Origin: an uncultured Anaerolineaceae bacterium
Lineage (GTDB): Bacteria; Chloroflexota; Anaerolineae; Anaerolineales; UBA11579
DNA: 64,000 nucleotides
Reading direction: 5' to 3'
Assembly: GCA_964572455.1 (NCBI GenBank)
Contig: CAZNFL010000009.1
Location: 443-64,442, forward strand
Part shown: piece after piece, positions 46,170 to 61,005 of the stretch
Position numbering within the stretch: the stretch's first letter is position 1
Layout of the letters: each line of letters starts with the position of its first letter
Position numbers and translations under genes: made by a program
The notes under the pieces: generated by a model
What the model saw: the letters and a program-made list of their open reading frames with translations, nothing else
What the model was told of the DNA's origin: nothing
The model's database searches: none

Positions 46170-46282
46170 AGAAACCTCTTTACACTTGTTTGCTGAGTTC
46201 AGATAGCCTGACCGTTCCGATTACAATCCTTGCACAGGCAGGCTTTAGTCGTTACAATGAAACAAGTGTTCTAGATATTATC

Positions 46283-47461: not shown

Positions 47462-47471
47462 GGACGAGGAT

Positions 47472-48095: not shown

Positions 48096-48525
48096 GAATT
48101 TAGAATTTCGAATGAAAAACGAAAATGGCTTGACGCGCGAGAAGGATCTCCCAGCCCGGACCAAGCAGTTTGGTTTGCGGGTCATCCGCCTTGTCGATTC
48201 TCTGCCGCGCAGCAAGAGCGCTACCGTGATCGGCAACCAGTTGTTGCGCTCGGCCACCTCCGTCGGCGCTAACTATCGCGCCGCTTGCCGTGGTCGTTCG
48301 CGGGCAGATTTCATCGCCAAACTCGGCATTGCACTCGAAGAAGCGGACGAGTCTCTATATTGGATGGAAATGTTACTTGAGGCCGACTTGGTTGCTAGGC
48401 CAAAAATCCTGAGCTTGATCGACGAGGCAAATCAACTCGTCGCAATCCTGACGGCCTCTACAAAAACCGCACGAGCCAACATCGCAAGGAAATAATTTTC
48501 AATGGGAAACCAAATTCTAAATTCT
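48095..48525. mobile_element. putative inserted cassette: four-helix-bundle gene bracketed by a perfect 14-bp inverted repeat
   Basis: AGAATTTAGAATTT at 48095-48108 and its exact reverse complement AAATTCTAAATTCT at 48512-48525. AT-rich flanks inside a GC-rich operon. Confidence 0.5.
48112..48495 (+). CDS. four-helix-bundle protein (23S rRNA intervening-sequence protein family)
   Basis: FGLRVIRLVDSLPRS...IGNQLLRSATSVGANYRAA...SRADFIAKLGIALEEADESLYWMEML is the family signature. Confidence 0.85.
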   Translation: MKNENGLTREKDLPARTKQFGLRVIRLVDSLPRSKSATVIGNQLLRSATSVGANYRAACRGRSRADFIAKLGIALEEADESLYWMEMLLEADLVARPKILSLIDEANQLVAILTASTKTARANIARK

Positions 48526-48569
48526 AAAATAAACAATCTAAATTTCTTTTTGTTTTATCGAGGTTTGGT

Positions 48570-50225
48570 ATGAGCGAAAACATACATGGCCGAAAGCGCA
48601 TCGGCTTCGTCGTCGGCGGCAGCCTGAAGACGAACCTGCAGGTGCGGCTCGAGGTGCCTGCGCACGAAGTGCAGGAGGGCGCCTTCGTCGTCATCCAAAG
48701 CGATGACTGGTTCTTCCATGGCCTGGTCACCGACCTGCAGCTCGGCTCCACCGACCCGCGCTTCGCCGATGAGCAGACCGCCAACCGCCTGCCAGGCGAG
48801 CTGGCCGACCTGCTGCACGGCCAGACTTTATATACCAACCTCGAGATCCTGCCCGCCCTGATGATCACCGGCGGCGAGGACCCCCAGGGGCCGCTGCCGG
48901 TCAAGACCGTGCCCGCCCACCACGCGCCGGTCATGCTGGCCAGCGAGGGCGACATCGCCGAGATCTTCGGCGACCCGGCCGCCAAGGGTAACTTCGTGAT
49001 CGGCACGACCAGGGAACAAGGCCACCCGGTGGCTATCGACTTGCGCAAGTTCATCCAGCGCTCCTCGGGCATCTTCGGCGCCACCGGCACCGGCAAGAGC
49101 TTCCTCACCCGCCTGCTGCTGGCGGGCCTCATCCACCACAACGCCGCCTCGGTGCTGGTGCTGGACATGCACAACGAGTACGCCTTCGACGACCAGGATG
49201 AGAACGGCAACCCGGTCACCGGGCTGAAGACCAAGTTCCCCGCCAAGTTGCGCGTCGTCGGGTTGGGCGCCGGCGCCACCATCCGCGGCGCCGCGCCGGA
49301 TTTCAACCTCGAGATCGCCATGAGCGACATCATGCCCGAGGACATCGAGCTGCTGACCCGTGAGCTCAACCTCAAGGAGACCACTCCCACGACCCTGGAT
49401 GCGCTGGCGACCAGCTTTGGCCGCGGCGCCTGGTTCCAGGAATTCAAGAATATGAAGTCCGAGGGCACCATCGAGGGCGACGACGGCAAGCGCATGCCGG
49501 CACCGGGCAGCGTGGCCGCCTGGGCGGCCGAAACCGGCGCCAACCCGATGGCCGCCGAGGGCTTGCACAACAAGCTGCGCCGTGTGTTCAACAAGCCTTA
49601 TATTGCCGAGCGCCCGGCCGCCGACACCATCGGCGAGATCGTCAAGATGCTGGAGGCTGGGCAGCACGTGGTGCTGTCCTTCGGGCAGCACGAGAGCGAC
49701 CTGGACTATTTGCTGGTGAGCAACTTGCTCACCCGCCGCATCCGCCAGCGCTGGGAGCTAGCAACCAACAGCTATAGAACCAGCGGCAAGCAGGAGCCGC
49801 GGCCGCTGGTGATCGCGCTGGAGGAGGCGCACAAACTGCTCAACCGCGAGATGGCGGTGCAGACCACCTTCAGCACCATTGCCCGCGAGCTGCGCAAATA
49901 CTACGTCACCCTGCTGATCATCGACCAGCGGCCCAGCCAGATCTACGACGAGGTCATGTCGCAGCTCGGCACGCGGGTCTCGGGCTGGCTGGGCGACGAC
50001 GACGACATCCGCGCCGTGCTCTCCGGGCTGGCAGGAAGGGAACAACTAAAGGGCATGTTGGCCAGGCTACAACCAAAAGAAGAAGTCCTCCTGCTTGGCT
50101 GGGGCGTCCCAATGCCTCTTCCAGTCAAGTCGAGAAGGTACGACGATACTTTCTGGCGGGAGCTGCTGGGGAAGGCGGGAGGCAAGCGGAGCGCCAAGGA
50201 TATCAATGAGGAGCTGGGGTTTTAG
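48570..50225 (+). CDS. HerA-like (DUF87, FtsK/HerA superfamily) ATPase
   Basis: N-terminal barrel-like segment, Walker A GATGTGKSF, VIALEEAHKL, LLIIDQRPSQI. Confidence 0.8.
   Translation: MSENIHGRKRIGFVVGGSLKTNLQVRLEVPAHEVQEGAFVVIQSDDWFFHGLVTDLQLGSTDPRFADEQTANRLPGELADLLHGQTLYTNLEILPALMITGGEDPQGPLPVKTVPAHHAPVMLASEGDIAEIFGDPAAKGNFVIGTTREQGHPVAIDLRKFIQRSSGIFGATGTGKSFLTRLLLAGLIHHNAASVLVLDMHNEYAFDDQDENGNPVTGLKTKFPAKLRVVGLGAGATIRGAAPDFNLEIAMSDIMPEDIELLTRELNLKETTPTTLDALATSFGRGAWFQEFKNMKSEGTIEGDDGKRMPAPGSVAAWAAETGANPMAAEGLHNKLRRVFNKPYIAERPAADTIGEIVKMLEAGQHVVLSFGQHESDLDYLLVSNLLTRRIRQRWELATNSYRTSGKQEPRPLVIALEEAHKLLNREMAVQTTFSTIARELRKYYVTLLIIDQRPSQIYDEVMSQLGTRVSGWLGDDDDIRAVLSGLAGREQLKGMLARLQPKEEVLLLGWGVPMPLPVKSRRYDDTFWRELLGKAGGKRSAKDINEELGF
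50141..50225 (+). repeat. herA 3'-end repeat, copy 1 (functional gene end)
   Basis: Encodes RRYDDTFWRELLGKAGGKRSAKDINEELGF*. Confidence 0.85.
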
Positions 50226-50469
50226 AACGGAAGCTAAAACAATATGGGAGTAGCTGAGGTATTTATGACTGTTTTAGATGACAAGTTGATTTTCCCACTG
50301 CTTCAAATTTTTTTTATGTTACTTTTTATCAACGGCTTGAGAATAGAATGGCGTTGTTTTACCAGAAAAAGCAATTTAACCATGAAAGTAACCAGGAGCA
50401 AACAGAGCTGGGCGTATTTCGAACTTTTCTTTGGTATTGCTTCACTAATTGCACTGGAGACAATCGCTT

Positions 50470-50554
50470 CGACGACACCTTCTGGCAGGAGCTGCTGGGC
50501 AAAGCGGGCGGGAAACGGAGCGTGAAGGAGATCAACGAGGAGCTGGGGTTTTAG
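50470..50554 (+). repeat. herA 3'-end repeat, copy 2
   Basis: Reads (R)FDDTFWQELLGKAGGKRSVKEINEELGF*; about 80% nt identity to copy 1 by eye. Confidence 0.85.
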
Positions 50555-50570
50555 GGCAACTGTTCCGGTA

Positions 50571-51545
50571 TTAATCCTTTCGCGGGATTAGTTTCAGTGC
50601 ATAATCTTTTGCGTTTTCTAAAATTTCATCATATTCGCTCGAGTGGATGGTGTTAACTTCGTAATCTTTTCTTACGTTATCAATAAATGAAGCGAAATCC
50701 TCATTTTGTTCACAAAGTTTATTCATTAATTCCCAATCAAGCTGTCCGCGTTCCTTTGCAGGAAAAACAACCTCGGAAGAATCAATGTCCTCTAGATCGA
50801 GACGGATGATGCCAATTCCAAAAGCTGTGGACAATCTCTCAAGTTCAGCTAATAAGTCGTCGCGTTGTTCAACAGTTGAACCAACTAAATATCCTTCATT
50901 GGCCCAGGATGAATTTGACACTGCCTGAAAAAACGCTTCGCGATAATTATTGCGATTTATTTGTTTTTTTATTTCAAATGAATAAAACTTTATATTTGAT
51001 CGATCTACAACCTTACTCAAAGCCATCAATTTTGCATTCCATTCTTCAATTGGGATATGGAAGCCGACCATATCGGGATGAGTCCATTCGTTTATTTCTG
51101 CATGTTTTGATTTTTCGTGAAAGATCGTTTTTGAATATATTTGCCGGCCCCTATTAAAAGTTGGGTTTGAGTAAACATAATATGCTAATAATGGATGAAG
51201 TTCACGTTCGCGAAAAACGTGCGCAGTGGGATCTTTATATTTTCCATTATCCCCAACAGAAAGGGCCTTAATCAATTCTGGCGTAATTTCGCTTCCACGA
51301 GATTTTAAAAAGAATCTAGCCGGATACTCTCCAATTTTTAAGAATTGAGATTTTTGATTCTTTACATCTACATATAATCGAGCACCTAATGTTTGCCAAG
51401 GCGTTTTGCCTTGAGATTGTAATTTTTGGTCAAGATTCATTTCCTTTCCCCGCTCCCATATTTCCTGATAGGTCATTGGCGCAGCGGCCGCTTTCAAAAC
51501 TTCCTCTGCGAAATCCAAGAATGTCAAATCAGCTTGCATGGACAT
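50571..51545 (-). CDS. HARE-HTH domain protein with PD-(D/E)xK nuclease-like C-terminal region (HrgA/COG2958-like)
   Basis: N-terminal LTFLDFAEEVLKAAAAPMTYQEIWERG...FLKIGEYPARFFLK is HARE-HTH. The central WTHPDMVGF ... FYSFEIKK matches PD...ExK spacing. Confidence 0.6.
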   Translation of the reverse strand: MSMQADLTFLDFAEEVLKAAAAPMTYQEIWERGKEMNLDQKLQSQGKTPWQTLGARLYVDVKNQKSQFLKIGEYPARFFLKSRGSEITPELIKALSVGDNGKYKDPTAHVFRERELHPLLAYYVYSNPTFNRGRQIYSKTIFHEKSKHAEINEWTHPDMVGFHIPIEEWNAKLMALSKVVDRSNIKFYSFEIKKQINRNNYREAFFQAVSNSSWANEGYLVGSTVEQRDDLLAELERLSTAFGIGIIRLDLEDIDSSEVVFPAKERGQLDWELMNKLCEQNEDFASFIDNVRKDYEVNTIHSSEYDEILENAKDYALKLIPRKD

Positions 51546-51670
51546 TGCCTTTACTCATCTTTTTAGAAGGGCTATTTCTCGATTATACATGCCAATCTCC
51601 GATCTCTCTCTTCCCGCAATCGAACCGGAGGCGTGGTCCAGCATGGATGTTTTTGGTAGTTATAGTAGTT

Positions 51671-51809
51671 TGCGCAGCTTCGCTGCGCGGTAGAAGCTAC
51701 TCGGCTGTGCCGAGTAACGCTTCTCCAGCGGGACCATGGGATTTTTGATTGCTGCGCAGCTTCGCTGCGCGGTAGAAGCTACTCGGCTGTGCCGAGTAAC
51801 GCTTCTCCA
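51671..51809 (+). repeat. two identical 57-nt units of hairpin repeat family B
   Basis: tgcgcagcttcgctgcgcggtagaagctactcggctgtgccgagtaacgcttctcca at 51671-51727 and 51753-51809. Each unit contains the imperfect palindrome gaagctactcggc/gccgagtaacgcttc. Confidence 0.9.
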
Positions 51810-52080
51810 TGGCTATACCGGGATTTTTTGATTTACAGATTGCGGCAGTCTTAAGAGAGAGATTCGGATAGCTCTTCGCTGCTCCTTCGCTTCGCTCAGG
51901 GCAGGCTCTGGCTTCGCTGCTGAAGTGCGGCGTGCGACAAAAACCGTCGCGAACGCCGTCCTCGCAATGACGAACCCTTTATAGGACGTGGCGGGAGATT
52001 GCTTCGCATCGTCACGCCTTGCCTGCGGCAGGCTTACTAGCTCGCAATGACGGTGGAGGCGCATGGTAGGTATGTGGCGT

Positions 52081-52140
52081 TGCTTCGCAACGCCTTGGGA
52101 GAAGCTACTCGCCTACGTCGAGTAACGCTTCTCCATGGCT
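52081..52140 (+). repeat. family B hairpin repeat, diverged copy
   Basis: ...gagaagctactcgcctacgtcgagtaacgcttctccatggct. Confidence 0.75.
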
Positions 52141-52181
52141 AAAGCGTGGTAGGTATGTAAGTATTGTCGGTGTAGGCGGTT

Positions 52182-52226
52182 TGGTAACTATGGTAATTAT
52201 GGTAGTTATGGTAATCATGGTAGGTT
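52182..52226 (+). repeat. five tandem 9-nt units TGGTARNTA
   Basis: tggtaacta tggtaatta tggtagtta tggtaatca tggtaggtt. The array overlaps the last codons and stop of the 52215 gene. Single TGGTAGKTA motifs also occur at 51654, 52064 and 52147. Confidence 0.8.
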
Positions 52227-52862
52227 TGGTTGCCCTTGGGTGAAGGTAGCGCGCAAGAAAGCATTGCGCCGCTCCTCCGCTGGGTCGGGCAGCTCGGGCC
52301 CAGCTTCGATGGACTCCTGGATAAGGCCGTTTAGCAGCTCATTGACCGAGAGTTTGAGCGATTTATCGATGGCGGCGGGGACGGCGAAGTAGTAGATGCC
52401 CCCGGGGCGGAAGAATTTCATGGCGAAGCCTTTTTTGACCAAGACGGTGAGGCGCTTGTGGGTGTTGGCGGGGTCCTGAACCAGGACGCGGCTCAACTGG
52501 GCCAGGGAGGACACTCCGGCGTAGCGCAGGGCGATGAGAGCCTCCTTTTGGCGGTATGAGAGATCGACCAGGGGCATGACGGAGCGGGATTTGGCCAGAG
52601 CTTTTCTCAGCATTTTTCGCTCCCAGTCGCCCATGTTATCCAGGGCGGATTTGAGCGCAAACAGCGGATCTAACCCGGCTTTCAGGGCGCGCTCGATGCG
52701 CTTGCAAAAGCGCGGCCAGGGGCCGTCAAGGAAGTCCAGGTGGGAGGAGGGCAAGCCCTGCAAGACGGCGTACAACATTTCTATGGTGAGCATGGCGGCA
52801 TTATCGGGCGAAACGGGAGTTTCGTGCGAAAATGGGGCGAATGTCAAGGGGCTGGACGGCAA
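52215..52862 (-). CDS. hypothetical protein with winged-helix (MarR-like) segment
   Basis: YRQKEALIALRYAGVSSLAQLSRVLVQDPANTHKRLTVLVKKGFAMKF. TTG start at 52862 overlaps herA-repeat copy 3, so ATG 52793 may be the true start. GC-rich, unlike its neighbours. Confidence 0.5.
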   Translation of the reverse strand: MPSSPLTFAPFSHETPVSPDNAAMLTIEMLYAVLQGLPSSHLDFLDGPWPRFCKRIERALKAGLDPLFALKSALDNMGDWERKMLRKALAKSRSVMPLVDLSYRQKEALIALRYAGVSSLAQLSRVLVQDPANTHKRLTVLVKKGFAMKFFRPGGIYYFAVPAAIDKSLKLSVNELLNGLIQESIEAGPELPDPAEERRNAFLRATFTQGQPNLP

Positions 52863-52910
52863 GGGGCGGGCCGGGGAGCGGAGCGCCTCAATGAGGAACT
52901 GTAATTTTAG
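52843..52910 (+). repeat. herA 3'-end repeat, copy 3 (degenerate)
   Basis: gtcaaggggctggacggcaaggggcgggccggggagcggagcgcc[7-nt gap]tcaatgaggaactgtaattttag aligns to copy 1. Confidence 0.7.
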
Positions 52911-53000
52911 CTAGGAGGTGGCCTCGGGAAACAAAACGAGTTGGTTAAACATGGCAGAGAATAATCGTTATAGTAGAATTCTGGCACTAGGACGGGAACC

Positions 53001-54158
53001 TTGTTGCCAAAAATATTGCATGTATCATCGAGATTCTTAGAAGGAGTGAAGTCTACAACACCCGTACACAACAATACGCATAATTTGTATATATATCCAG
53101 CTAGGTTTTCCCCTCTTTTTGTAAAAAATAGTCTTCTCGAGTTTGCAACTACAAAGGATCTAGTTCTTGACCCATTTGCCGGCGGGGGAACAACATTGGT
53201 TGAGGCCATGAACAGTGGGATAAAGTCTGTTGGGTTTGACACCAATTCACTTGCCTGTTTTATTTCGAAAGTTAAAACAACGCCTCTGACGGATTTGGAA
53301 AGAAAGCATATCTTAGATTGGCTTCCGTGCGCTATTGATCAAGCAAATTTGCATACAGTTCTCAGCAAAAAGTATCGAAATGATGAGCGGGGATATAAGG
53401 ACGGGCTTCCATGGACAATCAGAAAATTTCTTGAATTAATAGTCCGGAGCATGGATGATCTCCGCTCCACAACTGAGAGAGATTTTATAAGATGCACTCT
53501 TTTAAGAGTTGGACAATGGTCTTTGGGGAAACTGTATATTCCCAGCGCTGAGGAGGTAAGGCTCTTTTTCTCTGAATTAGTACAAAAATCCCTAGACGCG
53601 AACAGGGAGCAAAGTCAAAATCTTTCACAAAAAAGACCTAGTATATTTAATAAGTCAATCGATGAAATTGACAAAGCATGGTGGAAGAATACCATTGGTA
53701 AAAAACCCAGTTTAGTTATTACATCACCTCCGTATCCAAATGTCCATGTTTTGTATCATAGATGGCAAATCATGGGGCGCAAGGAAACTGCTGCACCTTA
53801 CTGGATCGCAAATAGGCTTGACGGGAAAAGCCAGTCGTATTACACATTGGGAGCAAGAACAAAAAAGGGAGTAGACGATTATTTTCTTGCTGTGCAAAGC
53901 ATTTTTTCTAAACTCTATGAATTACTTGCGCCAAATGCACTGGTCATCCAATTAGTTGGGTTTTCAAACGATAAGCAACATTTCAATAAGTATTTGGCAG
54001 GAATGGAAAATGCTGGCTTTTTGCGACTAACGATGCAATCAGGTTTTAAATTTTTCCCTTATCTAAAAAGAGAAGTACCTCACAGGCGTTGGTATGCAAC
54101 AATCAAGGAAAGTTTGAGCACTTCATCTGAGTTTCTAATTATTCACAAAAAAGGGTAG
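53001..54158 (+). CDS. DNA amino-methyltransferase (N6A/N4C type)
   Basis: Motif I VLDPFAGGGTTLVEA near the N-terminus and motif IV LVITSPPYPNV ~180 aa later. TTG start. Confidence 0.75.
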   Translation: MLPKILHVSSRFLEGVKSTTPVHNNTHNLYIYPARFSPLFVKNSLLEFATTKDLVLDPFAGGGTTLVEAMNSGIKSVGFDTNSLACFISKVKTTPLTDLERKHILDWLPCAIDQANLHTVLSKKYRNDERGYKDGLPWTIRKFLELIVRSMDDLRSTTERDFIRCTLLRVGQWSLGKLYIPSAEEVRLFFSELVQKSLDANREQSQNLSQKRPSIFNKSIDEIDKAWWKNTIGKKPSLVITSPPYPNVHVLYHRWQIMGRKETAAPYWIANRLDGKSQSYYTLGARTKKGVDDYFLAVQSIFSKLYELLAPNALVIQLVGFSNDKQHFNKYLAGMENAGFLRLTMQSGFKFFPYLKREVPHRRWYATIKESLSTSSEFLIIHKKG

Positions 54159-54164
54159 GTCTTT

Positions 54165-56600
54165 ATGATTAATAATCCAAGGGATTTGTTTTTAGCTCTG
54201 CTAAACTCCACAAAGCCAAGCGGAGTAAAAGTTATTTTGCGGGAAATTGGCGATCATTCTGAAGCTGAGGTTGGAGAAACATTTGGACCTCTGAAGTTAT
54301 GCTGGAAGTTTTATGGCGACAACGAATCTAATATCTCGACTATAAATATCGCGACACAGCCGGAACGCAGTCTGATTGAGCGGATTACAAACGCAATCGA
54401 TGCTGTAATTGAAGGCGAATTTCATAAACGTGGAGGCAAACCTCCTCAATCACCAATGGAAGCTGTTTCATTGTGGTTTGGGAGGCCGACAAGTACCGCT
54501 GAAGGCGGACTGTCGAACTGGGAGGACTACGCTATAAAAGGGCATGATAAACATGTGAACGTCGTCCTCCTTGGAGGAGATGACGACATAAAGCCAACAA
54601 TAGACGTATTGGATGACGGAATAGGCATCAAAGAGGGGTTTTTCCATTTAACAATTCTGAGCCTTCAAGAAGGAAATAAAAGAAAAAAGAAGTATCTCGC
54701 AGGAGCTTTTGGCCAAGGTGGGTCGTCAACTCTAGGATTTAGCGAATTTACGTTCATTGCCTCTAGGCATCTAGATCAACCACAAAGGATCTCATTTACT
54801 TTGGTTAAAAAGCTCATTCTTTCGGAAGATTATAAGGATGATGCTTATGTCTATCTTGCTATCGCAGATGGGGCCGCATCAGAAGTGCCGCACTTTGATA
54901 TAACCGAAGACATAGAACTTTACAATGATTTGTCCAATAGCAATTTACACCTTAAAAATGGGACGCTTGTAAGATCCTACGGATACAGTTTGGAAAGGTA
55001 CAACAAACCACTATCACCTAGCGCAAACAATTTGTATCATCTCCTGCACACAATGATGTTCGATCCCTTGTTGCCTTTCCGAGTTATCGATTTAAGAAAT
55101 CCCCAGGCTTTGAAAAACGAGCTTGTTACAGGGTCGCGCAACCGACTAATGAAGCTCGCTCTCAAGAAGGAAGAGGGCGAAGATGAGGAGGGTCGAACAG
55201 TATTAAAACACCATGGTGTAATGGAAATGGTAAACCCAATAAGCAATAACGAGCCTAGTATTGGGGTTGAATATTGGGTCGTATTTAATTACAAAAAACA
55301 AAAAGGCGAATTAGTATTACGACCATCATCAAATGAGCTTTTTGTAAACAAAGATCGACCAATACTTGGAACTGTCAACGGTCAAAATCAAGGCGAGGAA
55401 ACTGCTCATTTTATTCGTAAGCTTAATTTATCTTTGCTTTCCCGGCATATGGTTATTCACATCAACGTAACCAACGCTAATAAAGACCTTAGAAATCAAC
55501 TCCTATCTACAACAAGAGAGGGTTTTCGTAAAGACAAGGCTTACTATGAGCTTTTAAGAATTGTCGAAGAAAGAATTAAGGATGACGATGCATTGTATGC
55601 ATTAGAAAATGAATTAGTCGAAAGTATCTTTTCCCAAACAGACGAAACGGATGAAACTGTAAAGAGAGAGATAGTTAAACTTTTGCGAAACAGCGGTTAT
55701 GAAGTTAGTGCCCAAGGTTACGTATTAGCCCCAGGAGATGGTGATACCGAAGATCCAACGGGAATCATTAGAAGGCCAAGGCGCCCGCCAAAACCGTTAG
55801 ACCCTCTCCTTACCCTGGCTTACCCAGACGTAACGAAGTTCAAAATAGTTCAACCAGAAGGAAAACTCTCAATACGAGTTGGGAAATATCGACAAGTAAA
55901 AGTTGAGACTGATGCAAATTCCCGATTCGACAGAGAGCACAGAATTGCCATCAGATTTTCTCCCGAGTTGCTGGAACAAGCATCTAAGTCCCTTCTTAAA
56001 GGTGGTCGGATTAATTGGCGTATCCGGGTAAAAGAGGGTCAGGATCCTGGGGGGACTGGGAGAGTAATCGCAAGTCTGACTTTGCCTGATGGGGGTCAGC
56101 TCACCGACCAAATCGATTACGAAATCTTGCCCGCACCACCAGCAGGGGATGAAGAGATTTTGGGTAAAGTTCCTCCATTTGAAATAGTAAGAATCGATCC
56201 GGTTACACAGAGCGAGAAATTTCAACAAATCTGGCAAGAAGTCCCAGAAACAGAAATTCCAAACATAGCGTACAAGCCGCTAGAATCTAATGGGGGAATA
56301 AAAGTGTTTTACTCAATAGGCTTCAAGCACTACGCAAGCCAATTCGAAAAATTAAAACGTCAAGAATCTTTAGCAAAACTATTTCAACAGTCCTACGAAA
56401 TTTGGATTGCTTATCACGCAATCTTACAACACCGAGCCCGAAAAGAGAGCGCCTATTTGAATTCTCAAATTTCCGAGACTCAATTAGATCAAACTTCTGA
56501 AATTGAACGGGCGTTAGTGGCTGAATTGCAAGTTAAGCAAGCCTTACAAATTGCGGCGTTGAAGCATGCGCAAATAAAAGCAAGTCAGACTTCAGATTGA
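54165..56600 (+). CDS. GHKL (Bergerat-fold, MORC/Hsp90-like) ATPase with ~600-aa uncharacterised C-terminal region
   Basis: ERITNAIDA (N box, aa 72-80), VLDDGIGI (G1, aa 148-155), GAFGQGGSS (G2, aa 180-188). Starts 7 nt after the MTase stop. Confidence 0.7.
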   Translation: MINNPRDLFLALLNSTKPSGVKVILREIGDHSEAEVGETFGPLKLCWKFYGDNESNISTINIATQPERSLIERITNAIDAVIEGEFHKRGGKPPQSPMEAVSLWFGRPTSTAEGGLSNWEDYAIKGHDKHVNVVLLGGDDDIKPTIDVLDDGIGIKEGFFHLTILSLQEGNKRKKKYLAGAFGQGGSSTLGFSEFTFIASRHLDQPQRISFTLVKKLILSEDYKDDAYVYLAIADGAASEVPHFDITEDIELYNDLSNSNLHLKNGTLVRSYGYSLERYNKPLSPSANNLYHLLHTMMFDPLLPFRVIDLRNPQALKNELVTGSRNRLMKLALKKEEGEDEEGRTVLKHHGVMEMVNPISNNEPSIGVEYWVVFNYKKQKGELVLRPSSNELFVNKDRPILGTVNGQNQGEETAHFIRKLNLSLLSRHMVIHINVTNANKDLRNQLLSTTREGFRKDKAYYELLRIVEERIKDDDALYALENELVESIFSQTDETDETVKREIVKLLRNSGYEVSAQGYVLAPGDGDTEDPTGIIRRPRRPPKPLDPLLTLAYPDVTKFKIVQPEGKLSIRVGKYRQVKVETDANSRFDREHRIAIRFSPELLEQASKSLLKGGRINWRIRVKEGQDPGGTGRVIASLTLPDGGQLTDQIDYEILPAPPAGDEEILGKVPPFEIVRIDPVTQSEKFQQIWQEVPETEIPNIAYKPLESNGGIKVFYSIGFKHYASQFEKLKRQESLAKLFQQSYEIWIAYHAILQHRARKESAYLNSQISETQLDQTSEIERALVAELQVKQALQIAALKHAQIKASQTSD

Positions 56601-56698
56601 ATTAGTAGACCTTTAATTTCAAAATTATTTTTTGGCCATATTTGACGCTTTTTGTCGGTGTTGCTGATTCGCCCGCTGACGTCAGCGGCGGCCGCCGC

Positions 56699-56780
56699 CC
56701 GTTATCCTTGGAGGAGCTATTAGGTAAGACAGGCGGCATGTGGATCGCGAAGCAGATCAATGAGGGAGCCTTGGTTTTGA
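56699..56780 (+). repeat. herA 3'-end repeat, copy 4 (degenerate)
   Basis: tccttggaggagctattaggtaagacaggcggcatgtggatcgcgaagcagatcaatgagggagccttggttttga reads SLEELLGKTGGMWIAKQINEG. Confidence 0.7.
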
Positions 56781-56828
56781 AGTTGTACGCATCTTTCGCG
56801 GTAGAATAGGTATGATAAGAGGGAAAAA

Positions 56829-57380
56829 ATGATGGAAGTCATTACCGATAAGAAACAAATTTCAGAGGCGCAAGAGTTTTTTCGTAAATCCTTGGTCGAC
56901 CGTGCCGTGTATTCGAAGGAAGTAAACATTGGATATCAAGGCGGGTTAGTCAAAAGGCCAGTTTCTTGGATTCCTGAATTAGGTCTTTGGGCACATTTTG
57001 GCTTTCCCGGAGAAGATAAATCAAATGGAGAAAGATTTTGGTGTGTTTTTGGCTTTGGAGAACCAGGAAAAATGGTTTCCATCAATTGCGAAATAAATTC
57101 GCCGGTTAGCGGCAGAAATCGCCGAACGGGTGGTGTTTATTTACGCGACTCAAACATGAGAGTGCATTTGGGCCACCGAGGTAACATAAACGCTCGCGGC
57201 CGAATATCAAAAGAGATATTCTTTTCAACTATTCGCGGGAAGATTGTACAAGCCTCTGATGGAGATATGATGAATCCCGTTGTTTTGGTTGGCGAGCTCT
57301 ATAAATCAGATTTCCCGCTTAGGGTAAGGGATTTCATTCTGGAAGTAAAAAGACTCAAAAGCATATTGAGGGGAAGTTAG
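56829..57380 (+). CDS. hypothetical protein
   Basis: 183 aa with a GAGGG RBS, 3 nt upstream of the Mrr gene; no motif recognised. Confidence 0.5.
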   Translation: MMEVITDKKQISEAQEFFRKSLVDRAVYSKEVNIGYQGGLVKRPVSWIPELGLWAHFGFPGEDKSNGERFWCVFGFGEPGKMVSINCEINSPVSGRNRRTGGVYLRDSNMRVHLGHRGNINARGRISKEIFFSTIRGKIVQASDGDMMNPVVLVGELYKSDFPLRVRDFILEVKRLKSILRGS

Positions 57381-57383
57381 TTT

Positions 57384-58311
57384 ATGCCAATTCCAGGTTA
57401 TCAATCGATTATGCTTCCGCTTTTATATTTATCCCGAGATGGAAAACCTCATGCGATTCATGATGCAGAAGCCGAATTAGCATTGCAGTTTAATGTCTCA
57501 GAAGAGGAACGTGCCAGACTGCTTCCCAGTGGACAGAATGCCGTTTTTTCAAATAAGGTGTGGTGGGCTCGTACACACCTAAAGAAAGCTGGTTTGGTTG
57601 AATATCCAAAGAAGGCTCATTTTCAAATCACCACCCGTGGAAAACAAGTACTCTCTGAAAATCCAACAAACATAGGACATAAAATTTTTAAAGCAATTTC
57701 CAGAATATGCCGAATTTCGAAAAGTAAGTCAAGTAGACACGGTTGAAGAAGCACAGGATCAAGTAATCGACGGTTTGACACCGGAAGAAACACTTGAAAG
57801 TGCTTACTTGAGTATTAGGACTGATTTATCTGACCGTTTAATAACTTATGTAACAAACAGTACACCTGCTTTCTTTGAAAAACTAGTAGTTGAACTCCTC
57901 GTGAAAATGGGTTATGGTGGTTCGCAGCGCGATGCAGCAAAAGTAGTAGGCCAAAGTGGTGATGAGGGTATTGATGGAATTATTGATGAAGACAGACTAG
58001 GCTTAGACAGCATTTACATTCAAGCAAAAAAGTGGAATAAGAATACGCCAATTGGCCGTTCAGAAATACAGAAATTTGCTGGAGCCTTACAGGGAAAAAG
58101 GGCGAAAAAAGGTATTTTTATAACAACAGCTCGGTTTTCTGAGGACGCTCAGGCTTTTGCTGGATCAATTGATGCAAAAATTGTTCTGATAGATGGGAAG
58201 AGACTCACAGAACTCATGATTGATCATGGCGTTGGAGTTACAACTAGAACTCTGTATGAAATTAAATATTTAGATACTGACTATTTTGGTGAGAGTGCAG
58301 TCCACGAATAA
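57384..58311 (+). pseudogene. mrr: Mrr-family type IV restriction endonuclease, interrupted by a +1 frame break
   Basis: 57384-57746 is the Mrr_N winged helix (IPGYQSIMLPLL...). 57676-58311 is the linker plus Mrr catalytic core (GDEGIDGII...IYIQAKKW...GIFITTARFS). Removing one G at 57675/57676 gives ...NPTNIDIKFLKQFPEYAEFRKV... Confidence 0.8.
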
Positions 58312-58371
58312 ACATCCTCCCCTTTACCAATCCGAAAAAGCCGACGTTGCAGGCTGCTGCGTCACGTGCGC

Positions 58372-58452
58372 CAAGCCGATAGATGTGAGGAACTGCTATA
58401 GACGGGGCGGCAGGCGGAGCGCCAAGATAGCGATTAGGAGCTAGGGTTTTTT
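58372..58452 (+). repeat. herA 3'-end repeat, copy 5 (degenerate)
   Basis: gaggaactgctatagacggggcggcaggcggagcgccaagatagcgattaggagctagggtttt aligns to gggagctgctggggaaggcgggaggcaagcggagcgccaaggatatcaatgaggagctggggtttt. Confidence 0.7.
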
Positions 58453-58455
58453 GGC

Positions 58456-61005
58456 TCACAACCGAGATCTTGGAGCCAATAGCAACATAACCCTGTGCGC
58501 TAGCCTAATAACCGGCTTGCCGAGTTTATCGAGATTCTCGGCCGCTTTTATTAGACCGTCGATGCTAACCGAATACCATTTTTTACTAGGGATCGTCGCA
58601 GTCGCCTCTTCCACAAGTCGTTCGAGGTCGTCTGCTACCTCTTTTGCCTGATCCGGTGCTAATTCTTTACTCATTCTTGCAACAGCTTCGGCAAGTTGTT
58701 CTAAGCTTTGTTTTAATTCAGTTGATATATCTGCATTTCTGGCTTTATTAAAACTGTTTTGTATCGAACCACCTGTAACAAGGTTATCAATCTTTGTACC
58801 ATCTCCAAAATAGAAGTTTTGAGTCACTGTTCCTTCTCCTTCATAGCTCTCCCGGTATTCCTTACTTATAACATCATCGATCAACGACCGCACATTCACC
58901 ATTTTGTAACTTTGCTGACATTGAATCCTATTTTGCTTATCCTCAATGAATTTATGGAGAACTTCGAAACGAAAAAAATATGGGTCCGCTTTTGATTTGC
59001 ATTCTACACAGTTACACGGGATTAACTTGTCATACTTCGGTCTTCTAAAGCTAGCGTGAATATTATCCATCTGGTACATGATTATCGTCATTAGCTCTTT
59101 CTTGTGCGGACCGGATACTCTAACTTGAATTTCACGCTTGCTATAATATTCGACGACTTGGGCTTTTGACTTCTCTTTCTCAAGGACAACCCCGCTTTTC
59201 CAAACATACTTTTGCTCTAGAATAAACCTATGTAAAAGCACAATCAATTGAGTGAGTATGCCTTTGGGCATGAACTCATAAGCGTATCGCAACAATAAAT
59301 TATTATCGGTTTCCCATTCATAAATTGGTTGGTTCTCAGTCAAAAGCTGAGGGGCAATGTAGGTATCAGAACTATCGGGGATCTTATAACATAGACGAAA
59401 CCTCATCATTAATTGCAAAAGTTCCCCATGCATGTTGGAATATTCCTCGGATCCCCATATATTTATTAAGTCTGAGCGAGTGAACTGTCCTAGATTTGTT
59501 ACAACGATAGGATTATCCAGAACTTTGTAAACCGCCCGAGTCGCCCACTCTGGTTTTAGGAAAACTGTTCTCCTCAAGAGATCATCATCCTGAAAATGTA
59601 AAAAAACCCCAATATCATGTAAGTACCCACTCAATTGCAAGCAATCTCTTTCGTCGTGAAAACCGTTTTGCCTGCATAGTGCAAAGTAGTTCTCTAAGGA
59701 GATGTAATTATGAACGTCCCCCTCAAGAAGGCCTCGAACATCCGACCACGATTTCGGAAGCATAGTCCCTACATGTGGCAATGATATTACATAGTGCTTT
59801 ATCTCCTCCTTTATTTTCTCCAACCCTCGATTGTCAGAAAAATTTGCAGGGAGCACTTCTTTTAGATTCGTAAATTCTCCTCTTAGTACCCGTTCATTAA
59901 TTTCCCTTCGCCGATCTTGTTTTTCGTTTTTTATTATCAGTAGAGGACTGTTATCACTTAATAGCTCGATCAGGTTTAGCCAATAATAAAAGTCAGTATC
60001 TTCCTTTCTCGAATCAGCAACTAAGGTATATAGAGATCGCCTAGTTAAGAAAAACTGATGAGTCGTATGATAAATCTCTTGTCCTCCAAAATCCCAAATA
60101 TTTAATCTAAAGTTCTTTTCTTTATAGGGAAATGTCCAATTAAAAATGTCGACTCCCCTAGTTGTAACTTCCTCCTTCAAATTGTAAGTTGAATCAATTA
60201 TTTTATTAGCCAATGTGGTCTTGCCAGCTCCCGCTTCCCCTAATATTAGCAATTTAGCTTCGTACAGTAAATCTCTGCCTAATTCTAATTGCTGATAATA
60301 TTTACCAATTTCATAGAGGCCTTTTCGTGCAATCTCTGGGGGAGGCACAATTAAGGGATTTGAGGACAAAGCTAATTCTTGAAGTCGCTCAAGGCCAACA
60401 ATTTCCACAGGCAAGACCTCTATTTGATTGAATTCTAGATCTAGGTATACAAGTCCCACTAGACCTGATATTGATGTGTTCAACTCCTTTATATTATTCT
60501 CGTTTAAGTTGAGGGTTCGCAAATTACTTAACGCAGATAGGTCGTTTGGAAGTTTAGACAGCCGATTTGAACTCAGATCGAGCCATTGCAACCGTATTAG
60601 CTTGTTTATCCCTTCCGATAGTTCGGCAATTCTGTTATAGCTCAGATCTAGGATTCTTAAATTAACCAGGTCAAAAATAACTAGGGGGATCGTTTCAAAA
60701 CGGTTATCACTTAGATGCAGATTGGTAAGCGATTTTAGTTTTCCAAAGGAACTGGGCAATGTTTGAAGGTTACTTCCATTCAACTTCAGTTCTTTTAATT
60801 TCTTCAATTTCAGAATATCATCAGGAACCTCTGAGATAAAATTTCCTTCCAACTGCAATTCCTCAAGCCAGGGTAAGTCAAACACATCAGCCGGAATCTC
60901 AGTTAGTGGTTTATGGCTTTCTCGCTTCGGTCTAAGGTCGAGCAGCCGAAAGCGACCGTCTTTGGCCTGGCTTATCTGCTTTGCCGCCCATTTAGGGACT
61001 ATCAA
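58456..61005 (-). CDS. Roco-type protein: LRR + Roc GTPase + COR + unassigned C-terminal domain
   Basis: About 9 LRRs (LxxLxLxxNxL). P-loop GEAGAGKTT, switch II WDFGGQE, then a long COR-like region. The last ~150 aa are unassigned. TTG start. Confidence 0.75.
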   Translation of the reverse strand: MIVPKWAAKQISQAKDGRFRLLDLRPKRESHKPLTEIPADVFDLPWLEELQLEGNFISEVPDDILKLKKLKELKLNGSNLQTLPSSFGKLKSLTNLHLSDNRFETIPLVIFDLVNLRILDLSYNRIAELSEGINKLIRLQWLDLSSNRLSKLPNDLSALSNLRTLNLNENNIKELNTSISGLVGLVYLDLEFNQIEVLPVEIVGLERLQELALSSNPLIVPPPEIARKGLYEIGKYYQQLELGRDLLYEAKLLILGEAGAGKTTLANKIIDSTYNLKEEVTTRGVDIFNWTFPYKEKNFRLNIWDFGGQEIYHTTHQFFLTRRSLYTLVADSRKEDTDFYYWLNLIELLSDNSPLLIIKNEKQDRRREINERVLRGEFTNLKEVLPANFSDNRGLEKIKEEIKHYVISLPHVGTMLPKSWSDVRGLLEGDVHNYISLENYFALCRQNGFHDERDCLQLSGYLHDIGVFLHFQDDDLLRRTVFLKPEWATRAVYKVLDNPIVVTNLGQFTRSDLINIWGSEEYSNMHGELLQLMMRFRLCYKIPDSSDTYIAPQLLTENQPIYEWETDNNLLLRYAYEFMPKGILTQLIVLLHRFILEQKYVWKSGVVLEKEKSKAQVVEYYSKREIQVRVSGPHKKELMTIIMYQMDNIHASFRRPKYDKLIPCNCVECKSKADPYFFRFEVLHKFIEDKQNRIQCQQSYKMVNVRSLIDDVISKEYRESYEGEGTVTQNFYFGDGTKIDNLVTGGSIQNSFNKARNADISTELKQSLEQLAEAVARMSKELAPDQAKEVADDLERLVEEATATIPSKKWYSVSIDGLIKAAENLDKLGKPVIRLAHRVMLLLAPRSRL

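What the first reader, a model, noticed from the sequence alone, without database searches (positions are those of the whole stretch)
53001..56600. Methyltransferase tightly coupled to an 811-aa GHKL (MORC-like) ATPase: an R-M-like pair with no nuclease domain
Seen in the sequence:
- 53001-54158 has amino-MTase motif I (VLDPFAGGGTTLVEA) followed ~180 residues later by motif IV (LVITSPPYPNV). This is an alpha-type order with the target-recognition region in between.
- Seven nt after its stop, 54165-56600 encodes a protein whose first ~190 residues carry all three Bergerat-fold motifs: ERITNAIDA, VLDDGIGI and GAFGQGGSS.
- The remaining ~620 residues match nothing I recognise.
- The pair forms its own cassette between two herA-end repeats.

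Established knowledge: comparative-genomics work has predicted that MORC/paraMORC-type GHKL ATPases function with methyltransferases in restriction-like systems. As far as I know, experimental understanding is minimal.

Inference:
- This is a self/non-self discrimination module in which the ATPase senses or compacts unmodified DNA.
- Its effector could be the unassigned C-terminal region or a neighbouring nuclease (50571-51545 or Mrr).
- SPPY rather than D/NPPY weakly suggests N4-cytosine methylation.
Basis: partly seen in the sequence, partly recalled or inferred. Interest (0 to 1): 0.7.

Follow-up and report, generated by a model that had tools for sequence, protein, structure and literature searches.

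The report
Methyltransferase paired with nuclease-less GHKL ATPase
A DNA methyltransferase and an unannotated 811-residue MutL/MORC-like ATPase form a two-gene unit that travels together across at least seven bacterial phyla. It looks like a restriction-modification system whose "restriction" protein has no recognisable nuclease.

Summary
ORFs 53001-54158 (385 aa) and 54165-56600 (811 aa) exist, six bases apart, with every quoted motif.

- **Methyltransferase.** It belongs to the N6_N4 family, with motif I before an invariant TSPPY.
- **811-aa protein.** It misses every Pfam, NCBIfam and PADLOC threshold. A confident AlphaFold model shows a GHKL domain plus S5 transducer (Foldseek E about 1e-10 to GyrB/ParE, Hsp90, SMCHD1 and MORC). 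This is followed by a helical segment, a disordered linker, an Ig-like sandwich and a long helical hairpin. No nuclease fold or motif was found.
- **Linkage.** 26 of 28 genomes with a full-length homologue carry the orthologous methyltransferase next to it, tandem or convergent. Seeding from the methyltransferase, 58 of 80 metagenome loci have a GHKL of this clade adjacent. Of the 22 without, 21 are cut short by contig ends. The two proteins co-diverge (Mantel r 0.69).
- **Neighbours.** No other window gene recurs with the pair.
- **Distant relatives.** They sit next to C5 methylases or Ssp phosphorothioation genes.

Best reading: this is a self-contained, paraMORC-type restriction-modification-like module. 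The ATPase is an ATP-gated dimeric clamp acting on unmodified DNA. How it harms that DNA is unresolved. I rate it a new variant of a known, computationally predicted kind.

The parts
52866..52912 (+). Left cassette boundary. Degenerate copy of the herA 3' end (GGGCCGGGGAGCGGAGCGCCTCAATGAGGAACTGTAATTTTAG).
   Evidence: Read directly. The pattern GCGGAGCGC-N-AATGAGG matches only here and at the true herA end (0.00 expected by chance). Aligned with the other copies.
53001..54158 (+). DNA methyltransferase, 385 aa, TTG start. Motif I (FAGGG) at residues 59-63, TSPPY at 241-245. Motif order I then IV (alpha-like permutation). Probably N4-cytosine.
   Evidence: Pfam PF01555 E 2.6e-14; PADLOC MTase_II E 7.9e-20 over residues 24-322; best PDB matches are N4-cytosine MTases. 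TSPPY and D57/G61/T64 are invariant in 26 orthologues.
54165..56600 (+). 811-aa GHKL-S5 ATPase with a family-specific C-terminal region. Proposed restriction or sensor subunit.
   Evidence: more than 559 full-length homologues, all 'hypothetical'; invariant ATP-binding motifs. AF2 pLDDT 82.8, pTM 0.79. Foldseek matches to GyrB/ParE, Hsp90, SMCHD1 and MORC.
54165..55034 (+). Residues 1-290: N-terminal strap plus Bergerat-fold ATP-binding domain. Motifs: I E72-N76-D79; II D150-G152-G154; III G180-G186; IV G266-T267.
55062..55529 (+). Residues 300-455: S5-fold transducer domain. Invariant GSRNRLM (323-329) and GTxNGQNQGE (402-411).
   Evidence: Foldseek alignments of 440-500 columns span the N and middle domains of ParE/GyrB 43K, Hsp90 and MORC..
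55536..55793 (+). Residues 458-543: helical segment (458-509), then a disordered Pro/Arg-rich linker (514-543, pLDDT below 50).
55839..56129 (+). Residues 559-655: Ig-like beta-sandwich. Conserved ETDAD..FDR (581-590) and GGRxxWR (613-619).
   Evidence: C-terminal model pLDDT 90.2. PDB hits are Ig-like domains only, best E 3e-5. BFVD hits are of the same kind..
56178..56594 (+). Residues 672-810: small alpha/beta unit plus a long helical hairpin. Invariant Y744/W747/Y750/H751/Q755 (NYEIWIGYHAILQ). Proposed constitutive dimerisation module.
   Evidence: the whole C-terminal region occurs only at the C-terminus of ~750-840-aa proteins of this clade (243 representatives among 1.84 billion proteins).
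56695..56779 (+). Right cassette boundary. Degenerate copy (60%) of the last 85 nt of herA. It is preceded by a 16-nt perfect palindrome, CCGCTGACGTCAGCGG, at 56673-56688.
   Evidence: family D1; alignment; sequence.

Best explanation
This is a self-contained, horizontally mobile, two-gene restriction-modification-like module of the paraMORC type.

- **Methyltransferase.** Motif order is I then IV, with an invariant TSPPY, so it probably makes N4-methylcytosine. It marks the host's own DNA.
- **811-aa protein.** It is the antagonist arm. I read it as a homodimer held together by its C-terminal helical hairpin. Its N-terminal GHKL+S5 heads close on ATP binding, as in MutL, MORC, Hsp90 and GyrB. 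This would make an ATP-gated clamp that engages DNA lacking the mark.
- **Target recognition.** The methyltransferase family is found almost only with GHKL proteins of this clade, and the two co-diverge. The two proteins therefore probably work as a complex, with the methyltransferase and/or the Ig-like domain supplying target recognition. That resembles a Type III Mod-Res pair more than an independent Type II pair.
- **Final blow to unmodified DNA.** No third gene is conserved, so I commit to damage by the 811-aa protein itself, through a catalytic site that current libraries do not recognise. Nuclease-free entrapment is the main alternative.

Shown: gene pairing, fold, intact ATP-binding motifs, and absence of known nuclease folds. 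Inferred: dimer and clamp, sensing of methylation state, complex formation, DNA damage and a defence role.

The confidence of 0.55 is for this statement as a whole. That the pair is a modification-based self/non-self module I put at about 0.75.
For: Pairing, seeded from the GHKL protein
- 26 of 28 genome loci with a full-length homologue have an orthologous MTase (32-42% identity) directly adjacent.
- 16 are tandem (gaps 17-208 nt) and 10 are convergent (gaps 5-706 nt).
- The hosts span Chloroflexota, Planctomycetota, Verrucomicrobiota, Acidobacteriota, Bacteroidota, Pseudomonadota and others.

Pairing, seeded from the MTase
- 58 of 80 metagenome loci carry a GHKL of this clade next to the MTase.
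- 21 of the 22 without it have under 1.8 kb of downstream sequence.
- The one well-flanked exception (L094) has a different GHKL, of the HATPase_c_3+HEF_HK+HATPase_c type.

Co-divergence and autonomy
- Mantel r is 0.69, with 0 of 2000 permutations reaching it.
- No other window gene recurs with the pair, and no third gene family is shared across the 811-type loci.
- Gene order varies. HTH_3 controller-like genes (L002/L004, L010) and VapBC-like neighbours occur in some loci. Decayed copies exist (L028, L036, L041). All of this is typical of R-M-like selfish or defence modules.

Structure
- The fold is GHKL+S5, with E 3.5e-10 to 1e-6 against ParE/GyrB, Hsp90, SMCHD1 and MORC2/3/4.
- ATP-binding residues are invariant.
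- The layout of N-terminal ATPase, disordered linker and C-terminal domain matches MutL.

Relatives use other DNA marks
- A ~750-aa sister group sits with a C5 Dcm methylase and MTaX1.
- ~805-aa relatives are homologous over 683 columns (hhalign probability 99.9, E 1e-33). They sit beside SspB/SspD phosphorothioation genes on three plasmids.

Setting in the window
- The pair lies in a low-GC island (0.41-0.48 against about 0.60).
- It occupies its own cassette in an array that also holds Mrr and a HARE-HTH protein.
- The window copy looks intact, with 5 departures at 187 columns that are at least 90% conserved (family range 1-12).

Prior prediction: Iyer, Abhiman and Aravind 2008 (PMC2292703).
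Against: - There is no experimental evidence of any kind. Every homologue is unnamed or 'hypothetical'.
- No nuclease fold or motif was found by Pfam, NCBIfam, PADLOC, PDB sequence profiles, Foldseek or regular expressions for PD-(D/E)xK, HNH, GIY-YIG, PLD and the MutL DQHA motif. The only regex matches fall on residues that are not conserved.
- E581 is invariant within the family but is Ala in the Ssp-linked relative. H432/D434 are also not conserved in distant relatives.
- One genome (L001) has an intact GHKL gene with no adjacent MTase. That is awkward for a lethal restriction activity.
- Sister subfamilies carry a third gene: DndB-like in 5 loci and a ~370-aa protein in 10. The two-gene form may therefore lack something those systems need.
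- The family is absent from 50,697 phage records and nearly absent from 72,556 plasmids.
- Dimerisation and clamp behaviour were not modelled.
Confidence: 0.55

Rival explanations
1. Nuclease-free restriction. The GHKL dimer topologically entraps, bridges or compacts unmethylated DNA, as eukaryotic MORCs do. It blocks replication and transcription of incoming DNA without cutting it.
For: - No nuclease fold or conserved catalytic cluster was found outside the ATP site.
- The architecture (ATPase heads, flexible linker, helical C-terminal module) is that of a clamp.
- Foldseek matches include MORC2 bound to DNA (9cdj, 9cdh) and SMCHD1.
- The solitary, intact GHKL gene in L001 is easier to tolerate if the protein does not cut DNA.
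Against: - No prokaryotic precedent was found in the literature searched.
- R-M-like modules that spread as addiction or defence units normally rely on DNA damage.
- The characterised paraMORC3/Shedu protein VcSduA needs its nuclease (PMC12137116).
- Absence of a known fold does not prove absence of catalysis.
Confidence: 0.2
2. Classical independent Type II system. The 811-aa protein is simply a large ATP-stimulated restriction endonuclease that recognises its own site. The methyltransferase acts independently, with no complex.
For: - Gene order is variable (tandem or convergent) and HTH_3 controller-like genes occur in some loci, both typical of Type II systems.
- PADLOC's REase_II models PDLC03419/PDLC03485 match the GHKL region of another protein, the 'sensor histidine kinase' of L056/L057. 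Some REBASE Type II enzymes therefore carry GHKL-like domains.
Against: - The 811-aa protein matches no PADLOC REase model.
- The methyltransferase family pairs almost exclusively with GHKL proteins, even ones under 30% identical to each other, and the two co-diverge. Type II R and M families usually shuffle freely.
Confidence: 0.15
3. Not defence. The GHKL protein is a MutL-like repair or epigenetic-maintenance partner of the methyltransferase. It could process lesions or mismatches linked to methylation, or read the mark to regulate genes.
For: - The layout of N-terminal ATPase, linker and C-terminal domain is MutL-like.
- Iyer et al. note that some paraMORCs may have been recruited to repair (PMC2292703).
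- In several loci the pair sits among housekeeping genes.
Against: - Distribution is patchy across phyla, and copies have decayed.
- In the window the pair is in a low-GC island cassette next to Mrr.
- Distant relatives are linked to Ssp phosphorothioation defence genes.
- The MutL endonuclease motif DQHA is absent.
- No link to mutS or vsr was seen.
Confidence: 0.07
4. The 811-aa protein is a conventional sensor histidine kinase, an Hsp90/HtpG chaperone or a MutL orthologue that merely happens to sit next to a methyltransferase.
For: Foldseek top hits include Hsp90 (E 4e-10) and GyrB/ParE. NCBI annotates a neighbouring GHKL protein in L056/L057 as 'sensor histidine kinase'.
Against: - No HisKA, HtpG, MutL or GyrB model is matched in Pfam or NCBIfam. 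Identity to all structural hits is 9-17%.
- The C-terminal region is unique to this clade.
- Adjacency to the methyltransferase holds in 26 of 28 and 58 of 59 loci, so it is not a coincidence.
Confidence: 0.02

Closest known systems
paraMORC GHKL ATPases of restriction-modification systems (Iyer, Abhiman and Aravind 2008, Biol Direct 3:8; PMC2292703)
   Same: N-terminal GHKL domain with intact ATP motifs plus an S5 domain. Lacks the MORC-specific motif. Has a family-specific C-terminal extension. Conserved neighbourhood with DNA methylases. Patchy distribution suggesting lateral transfer. That paper already noted a minority of neighbourhoods combining the ATPase with methylases or restriction endonucleases but lacking a helicase gene.
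   Different: Those systems usually include an SFII helicase and a recognisable nuclease (RE-fold, HNH, Vsr), or a fused nuclease or TIR domain. Here the conserved unit is only MTase plus ATPase. The C-terminal region is an Ig-like sandwich plus helical hairpin. I could not place the family in paraMORC1-5 because no reference sequences were at hand.
Shedu type I-D / paraMORC3 (VcSduA; PMC12137116)
   Same: A GHKL ATPase acting in defence. Predicted as an entwined dimer with a clamp-like middle domain. ATPase mutants lose defence.
   Different: VcSduA is a single gene with a C-terminal DUF4263 PD-(D/E)xK nuclease and no methyltransferase. The window protein has no DUF4263 or Shedu match.
MutL
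   Same: GHKL+S5 N-terminal ATPase, disordered linker and C-terminal domain. Acts with methyl-directed discrimination in some bacteria.
   Different: No MutL family match. The C-terminal fold differs and the DQHA(X)2E(X)4E endonuclease motif is absent. The genetic partner is a methyltransferase, not MutS or MutH.
Eukaryotic MORC / SMCHD1 ATPases
   Same: Fold of the ATPase module (Foldseek E 2.5e-8 to 5e-6, TM on target up to 0.53). Functional link to DNA methylation.
   Different: The MORC S5 motif is absent in 0 of 40. There is no CW or coiled-coil insertion. Sequence identity is 10-12%.
Type III restriction-modification (Mod-Res)
   Same: A dedicated, co-evolving methyltransferase and an ATP-using partner. 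Plausibly the methyltransferase supplies specificity.
   Different: Res is an SFII helicase with a PD-(D/E)xK nuclease, whereas here the partner is a GHKL ATPase with no known nuclease. The genes are often convergent (44 of 58 MTase-seeded loci), which is unusual for Type III.
HEF_HK/Response_reg_2 paraMORC-related elements (Bellieny-Rabelo et al. 2021; PMC8011034)
   Same: GHKL (HATPase_c_3) proteins enriched next to Type II R-M genes. One such protein replaces the 811-type GHKL next to this MTase family in L094.
   Different: The window protein has no HEF_HK or second HATPase_c domain.

Membership tests
GHKL (Bergerat-fold) ATPase superfamily | Motif I ExxxNxxD, motif II DxGxG, motif III GxxGxG, motif IV GT | tested here: met
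   E72/N76/D79, D150/G152/G154, G180/G183/G185/G186 and G266/T267 are invariant in 40 homologues.
GHKL (Bergerat-fold) ATPase superfamily | Bergerat fold by structure comparison | tested here: met
   AF2 model pLDDT 82.8. Foldseek E 3.5e-10 to ParE, GyrB and Hsp90; 101 PDB hits at E<=1e-3.
GHKL (Bergerat-fold) ATPase superfamily | Reaches the curated Pfam threshold of a HATPase_c family | tested here: not met
   PF13589 scores only 14.8-17.2 bits against a cut-off of 25. About 20 of the 120 listed homologues do carry a precomputed PF13589 hit.
GyrB/MutL/Hsp90/MORC subclass (GHKL + S5 transducer) | S5-fold second domain following the ATP-binding domain | tested here: met
   Foldseek alignments of 440-500 columns cover both domains of ParE 43K, GyrB 43K, Hsp90 N+M and the MORC3 and SMCHD1 ATPase modules.
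MORC family proper | GhXhhpXXRhl motif in the S5 domain (Iyer et al. 2008) | tested here: not met
   The regular expression is found in 0 of 40 family members.
paraMORC (sensu Iyer et al. 2008) | GHKL+S5, no MORC motif, conserved neighbourhood with R-M genes | tested here: met
   MTase adjacency in 26 of 28 GHKL-seeded loci and 58 of 80 MTase-seeded loci.
paraMORC (sensu Iyer et al. 2008) | Assignment to one of the families paraMORC1-5 by sequence | not testable with these tools
   No reference sequences were available. paraMORC3 (RE-fold/DUF4263 C-terminus) and paraMORC4 (TIR) are excluded by the lack of such domains.
Restriction-modification system | DNA methyltransferase with catalytic motifs | tested here: met
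   PF01555 E 2.6e-14; PADLOC MTase_II E 7.9e-20; FxGxG and TSPPY invariant.
Restriction-modification system | Partner protein with an endonuclease domain | tested here: not met
   No nuclease family, fold or conserved motif was found.
Restriction-modification system | Restriction of unmodified DNA and protection by methylation | not testable with these tools
   Needs experiments.
MutL | MutL N-terminal family match and C-terminal dimerisation/endonuclease domain (DQHA(X)2E(X)4E) | tested here: not met
   No Pfam or NCBIfam MutL match. The DQHA motif is absent. The C-terminus is Ig-like plus helices.
Sensor histidine kinase | HisKA/DHp domain with phospho-accepting His preceding the catalytic domain | tested here: not met
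   No HisKA or HATPase_c match. The GHKL domain is N-terminal and followed by an S5 domain.
N4-cytosine DNA methyltransferases | SPP[YF] catalytic tetrapeptide | tested here: met
   TSPPY at 241-245 is invariant in 26 orthologues. The closest PDB sequences are N4-cytosine MTases 8s9n/8s9m. The motif is a correlate, not proof.
N4-cytosine DNA methyltransferases | Demonstrated 4mC product | not testable with these tools
   Needs a SMRT or nanopore methylome, or biochemistry.
Known defence systems in PADLOC-DB v2.0.0 | Match of the 811-aa protein to any model | tested here: not met
   0 families at E<=0.01.

The most novel reading that the evidence does not exclude
A restriction-modification system with no nuclease. 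An ancestral MORC-like ATP-gated clamp neutralises DNA that lacks the host's mark by entrapping or compacting it. The same ~800-aa chassis (GHKL-S5-linker-Ig-hairpin) has been re-paired in evolution with three chemically different self-marks: N4/N6 methylation, C5 methylation and backbone phosphorothioation. That would make it a general reader of 'unmarked DNA' and a prokaryotic forerunner of MORC-based, methylation-linked silencing.
Probability: 0.2. Interest if true: 0.9.

Novelty: new variant of a known kind. Interest (0 to 1): 0.66.

Why it matters
GHKL/paraMORC ATPases were predicted in 2008 to work in restriction-modification systems. The one experimentally characterised example the searches turned up is the nuclease-fused paraMORC3/Shedu protein VcSduA (PMC12137116).

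This family offers a minimal test case:
- It has two genes and no helicase.
- It has no recognisable nuclease.
- Its methyltransferase family is dedicated to it.

If it restricts DNA, there are two outcomes. Either it defines a new nuclease active site, or it shows that an ATP-gated clamp alone can discriminate and neutralise unmodified DNA. The second outcome bears directly on how eukaryotic MORCs came to act downstream of DNA methylation.

The family currently has no Pfam, NCBIfam or PADLOC model. Genome annotation and defence-system finders therefore miss it.

Tried and rejected
Sequence and structure searches that gave nothing
- Pfam, NCBIfam and PADLOC scans of the 811-aa protein gave nothing above threshold.
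- phmmer and profile searches against PDB sequences were empty. The full-length protein gave only chance-level hits, and profiles A1 and A2 gave none.
- A separate AF2 model of residues 545-811 was made to expose a hidden C-terminal nuclease. Foldseek found only generic Ig-like sandwiches in PDB and BFVD.
- Regular expressions for PD-(D/E)xK, HNH, GIY-YIG, PLD, Walker A and MutL DQHA found only non-conserved chance matches.

Candidate effectors and partners
- Neighbouring genes as effectors (HARE-HTH 324 aa, orf215, orf183, Mrr, ROCO, HerA) were rejected. None recurs in 54 genome-derived loci.
- The ~420-aa partner of the Dcm-linked sister family was compared with the window protein's C-terminus. 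No similarity was found.
- I considered that the Ssp-linked relatives are SspF, SspG or SspH. The published descriptions (Walker A in SspF, FtsK-like SspH; PMC8092258) do not fit a GHKL protein.

Other checks
- tblastn found no phage copy and only four distant plasmid relatives. A scan of viral contigs found one distant relative.
- The promoter and terminator scan did not exceed shuffled expectation.
- Four literature searches for an experimentally characterised MTase+GHKL two-gene system found none.
- Third genes of sister subfamilies (~370 aa, 578 aa, 680 aa) gave no informative Pfam match.

Full report
**1. Observation**

ORF 53001-54158(+) is 385 aa with a TTG start. ORF 54165-56600(+) is 811 aa with an ATG start. 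Six bases separate the stop from the next ATG.

The methyltransferase carries VLDPFAGGGTTLVEA at residues 55-69 and LVITSPPYPNV at 238-248. Pfam N6_N4_Mtase matches at E 2.6e-14, but only over residues 22-86. In the usual beta-class enzymes this segment lies at the C-terminus, so the protein is a permuted form with motif I before motif IV. A PADLOC Type II MTase model (PDLC03364) aligns over residues 24-322. TSPPY is invariant in 26 orthologues. The best PDB sequence matches, though weak, are DNA cytosine-N4 methyltransferases (8s9n/8s9m, E 7e-5).

The 811-aa protein carries ERITNAIDA, VLDDGIGI and GAFGQGGSS. The key residues E72, N76, D79, D150, G152, G154 and G180-G186 are invariant in 40 homologues.

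**2. What the 811-aa protein is**

Sequence libraries do not recognise it:
- No Pfam family at default thresholds.
- HATPase_c_3 only at E 0.005-0.03, below the curated cut-off.
- Nothing in NCBIfam or PADLOC.
- Nothing significant in PDB sequences, either as a single sequence or as a profile.

It nevertheless heads a large full-length family. More than 559 clusters of about 800-825 aa share 43-49% identity, and all are unnamed or 'hypothetical'.

An AlphaFold2 model built on 40 homologues is confident (pLDDT 82.8, pTM 0.79). Foldseek against the PDB aligns 440-500 columns to the two-domain ATPase modules of ParE/GyrB, Hsp90, SMCHD1 and MORC2/3/4, with E from 3.5e-10 to about 1e-6. Residues 1-455 are therefore a GHKL domain plus an S5 transducer.

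The rest of the protein follows in this order:
- helices at 458-509;
- a disordered Pro/Arg-rich linker at 514-543;
- a beta domain at 559-655;
- a small alpha/beta unit at 672-717;
- a long helical hairpin at 721-810.

A second model of residues 545-811 (pLDDT 90.2) matched only generic Ig-like sandwiches in the PDB and in BFVD. Regular expressions for the common nuclease motifs and the MutL endonuclease motif hit nothing conserved. The MORC-defining S5 motif is absent from all 40 sequences. The C-terminal region occurs nowhere else. A profile search of 1.84 billion representatives found 243 hits, all at the C-terminus of ~750-840-aa proteins or fragments of them.

**3. Do the genes travel together?**

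Yes, in both directions.

Seeded from the GHKL protein, 28 genomes with a full-length homologue were examined. In 26 of them the orthologous methyltransferase lies directly adjacent. Sixteen are tandem, as in the window, and ten are convergent. Of the remaining two, L014 has the MTase lying divergent to an N-terminally truncated GHKL copy. L001 has an intact GHKL gene and no adjacent MTase. The hosts span Chloroflexota, Planctomycetota, Verrucomicrobiota, Acidobacteriota, Bacteroidota and Pseudomonadota.

Seeded from the methyltransferase, 58 of 80 metagenome loci carry a GHKL of this clade next to it: 44 convergent, 12 tandem and 2 divergent. Of the other 22, 21 have under 1.8 kb of downstream sequence. 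The single well-flanked exception (L094) has a different GHKL protein, of the HATPase_c_3+HEF_HK+HATPase_c type.

Pairwise identities of the two proteins correlate (Mantel r 0.69; 0 of 2000 permutations reached it).

No other window gene recurs beside the pair. No third family is shared across the 811-type loci. Some loci have small upstream ORFs, HTH_3 controller-like genes or VapBC-like pairs. Decayed copies exist in L028, L036 and L041.

**4. Wider clade**

Several relatives pair with other partners or other DNA marks:
- A ~750-aa sister group (about 29% identity over residues 47-510) sits in operons with MTaX1, a C5 Dcm methylase, a ~420-aa unknown protein and sometimes a KAP NTPase.
- Other sister forms, paired with the same methyltransferase family, add a DndB-like gene (5 loci) or a ~370-aa protein (10 loci).
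- On three plasmids (Ensifer, Devosia, Hymenobacter), ~805-820-aa relatives lie beside SspB/SspD phosphorothioation genes. The Ensifer one is homologous over 683 columns including the C-terminal beta domain (hhalign probability 99.9, E 1e-33).
- In the Ensifer and Devosia plasmids, a second GHKL protein lies alongside, and its N-terminal part matches PADLOC REase_II models.

The chassis is thus repeatedly coupled to DNA-marking enzymes of three chemistries. The Ssp-linked proteins do not fit the published SspF, SspG or SspH descriptions (PMC8092258).

**5. Setting in the window**

GC content falls from about 0.60 to 0.41-0.48 just after herA (48570-50225). The last ~85 nt of herA recur in progressively degenerate copies ending at about 50554, 52912, 56779 and 58450. 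These copies divide the island into cassettes:
- an empty cassette;
- one with a HARE-HTH protein, hairpin repeats and orf215;
- the MTase+GHKL pair;
- one with orf183 and a frameshifted Mrr.

The window copy of the 811-aa gene looks intact, with 5 departures at 187 columns that are at least 90% conserved (family range 1-12).

**6. Mechanism**

Shown:
- obligate pairing of a DNA methyltransferase with a GHKL+S5 ATPase whose ATP-binding residues are invariant;
- a layout of N-terminal ATPase, linker and C-terminal domain like MutL;
- no known nuclease fold;
- mobility and decay patterns typical of R-M-like modules.

Inferred:
- The protein dimerises through its C-terminal hairpin and closes its ATPase heads on ATP. 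This is established behaviour for GyrB, MutL, Hsp90 and MORC.
- It acts on DNA that lacks the methyl mark.
- It works in complex with its dedicated methyltransferase. Exclusive pairing and co-divergence are unusual for independent Type II pairs and resemble Type III Mod-Res.

The final step is open. No third gene is conserved and the module crosses phyla, so I favour an intrinsic DNA-damaging activity at an unrecognised site. Candidate clusters are ETDAD..FDR in the Ig-like domain and YHAILQ in the hairpin. Conservation of these in distant relatives is incomplete. Nuclease-free entrapment is a serious alternative.

**7. Comparison and novelty**

The closest known kind is the paraMORC ATPases predicted by Iyer et al. 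(2008) to act in R-M systems. The general idea is therefore known. The literature held here describes no experimentally characterised MTase+GHKL two-gene system. The characterised paraMORC3/Shedu protein carries a DUF4263 nuclease.

This family differs in four ways:
- It has a minimal two-gene form.
- It has a unique Ig-like plus hairpin C-terminus.
- It lacks any known nuclease or helicase.
- Its methyltransferase family is dedicated to it.

I rate it a new variant of a known kind, with interest 0.66. I could not check REBASE, so the family may already be listed there as a putative enzyme.

Noticed in passing
window 50141-58450: The 3' end of herA (last ~85 nt including the stop) is repeated four more times in increasingly degenerate form, ending at about 50554 (86%), 52912, 56779 (60%) and 58450. 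The copies divide a low-GC island into cassettes. This looks like serial site-specific insertion at the herA stop codon. No integrase or tRNA was seen in 40-64 kb.
   Followed up: partly
window 57384-58311: Mrr is split into two ORFs in different frames: Mrr_N (57384-57746) and Mrr_cat (57775-58311). About 40 residues of the PADLOC model are missing at the junction. This is a frameshifted pseudogene or a sequencing error.
   Followed up: partly
window 56829-57380: A 183-aa ORF with no family match ends 4 nt before Mrr_N, in the same cassette. It may be an Mrr partner.
   Followed up: no
window 50571-51545 (-): A 324-aa protein has an N-terminal HARE-HTH domain (E 2.5e-14) and an unassigned C-terminal ~250 residues. 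It never co-occurs with the pair elsewhere.
   Followed up: partly
window 51671-52146: Three copies of a 50-76-nt element containing a long hairpin (GGTAGAAGCTACTCGGCTGTGCCGAGTAACGCTTCTCC) lie between the HARE-HTH gene and orf215. They look like REP or MITE elements.
   Followed up: no
window 56673-56688: A 16-nt perfect palindrome, CCGCTGACGTCAGCGG, sits immediately before the right-hand herA-end copy. It may be a recombination or binding site.
   Followed up: no
window 58456-61005 (-): An 849-aa LRR-Roc-COR (ROCO) GTPase lies in the low-GC island directly after the last herA-end copy. Its C-terminal ~140 residues are unassigned.
   Followed up: no
window 46190-50225: A NurA-HerA operon has a 207-aa unknown ORF and a 23S_rRNA_IVP-family (four-helix bundle) gene inserted between nurA and herA. 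HerA also matches PADLOC HerA and mad8 models.
   Followed up: no
L056 (Ensifer pC), L057 (Devosia), L058 (Hymenobacter): ~805-820-aa relatives of the window protein lie next to Ssp-type phosphorothioation genes. SspD matches in L056 and SspB in L057 (PADLOC E about 1e-112 to 1e-116). L058 carries an annotated PAPS reductase, which was not scanned. L056 and L057 also hold a second GHKL 'sensor histidine kinase' (776-786 aa) that matches PADLOC REase_II models, plus a 635-680-aa unknown. This may be an undescribed phosphorothioate-dependent restriction module distinct from SspE and SspFGH.
   Followed up: partly
L040, L046, L049 (Bacillota and Tenericutes MAGs): A sister ~750-aa GHKL sits in a conserved operon: C5 Dcm methylase, GHKL, and an overlapping ~420-aa unknown protein. 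L049 also has an MTaX1 gene upstream of Dcm and a KAP NTPase downstream.
   Followed up: partly
L061-L063, L118, L031; L069, L072 and 8 others: Sister GHKL subfamilies paired with the same methyltransferase family carry a third gene upstream of the GHKL gene. It is either DndB-like (PF14072, E 1e-101) or a ~370-aa protein with a weak winged-helix match at its C-terminus.
   Followed up: partly
L094:6282-10507: This is the only well-flanked methyltransferase locus without a GHKL of this clade. Instead it has an 829-aa HATPase_c_3+HEF_HK+HATPase_c protein and a 578-aa unknown, so a different GHKL type has taken the same slot.
   Followed up: partly
L012, L013, L015, L016, L024, L027 (Bacteroidota): A conserved ~77-aa ORF with no Pfam match precedes the first gene of the module. 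That gene is the MTase in tandem loci and the GHKL gene in convergent loci. It may be a controller protein.
   Followed up: partly
L001:8001-10430: An intact GHKL homologue (P0040) has no adjacent methyltransferase and sits among glycosyltransferase and transporter genes. It is the one clear exception to the pairing among genome loci.
   Followed up: partly
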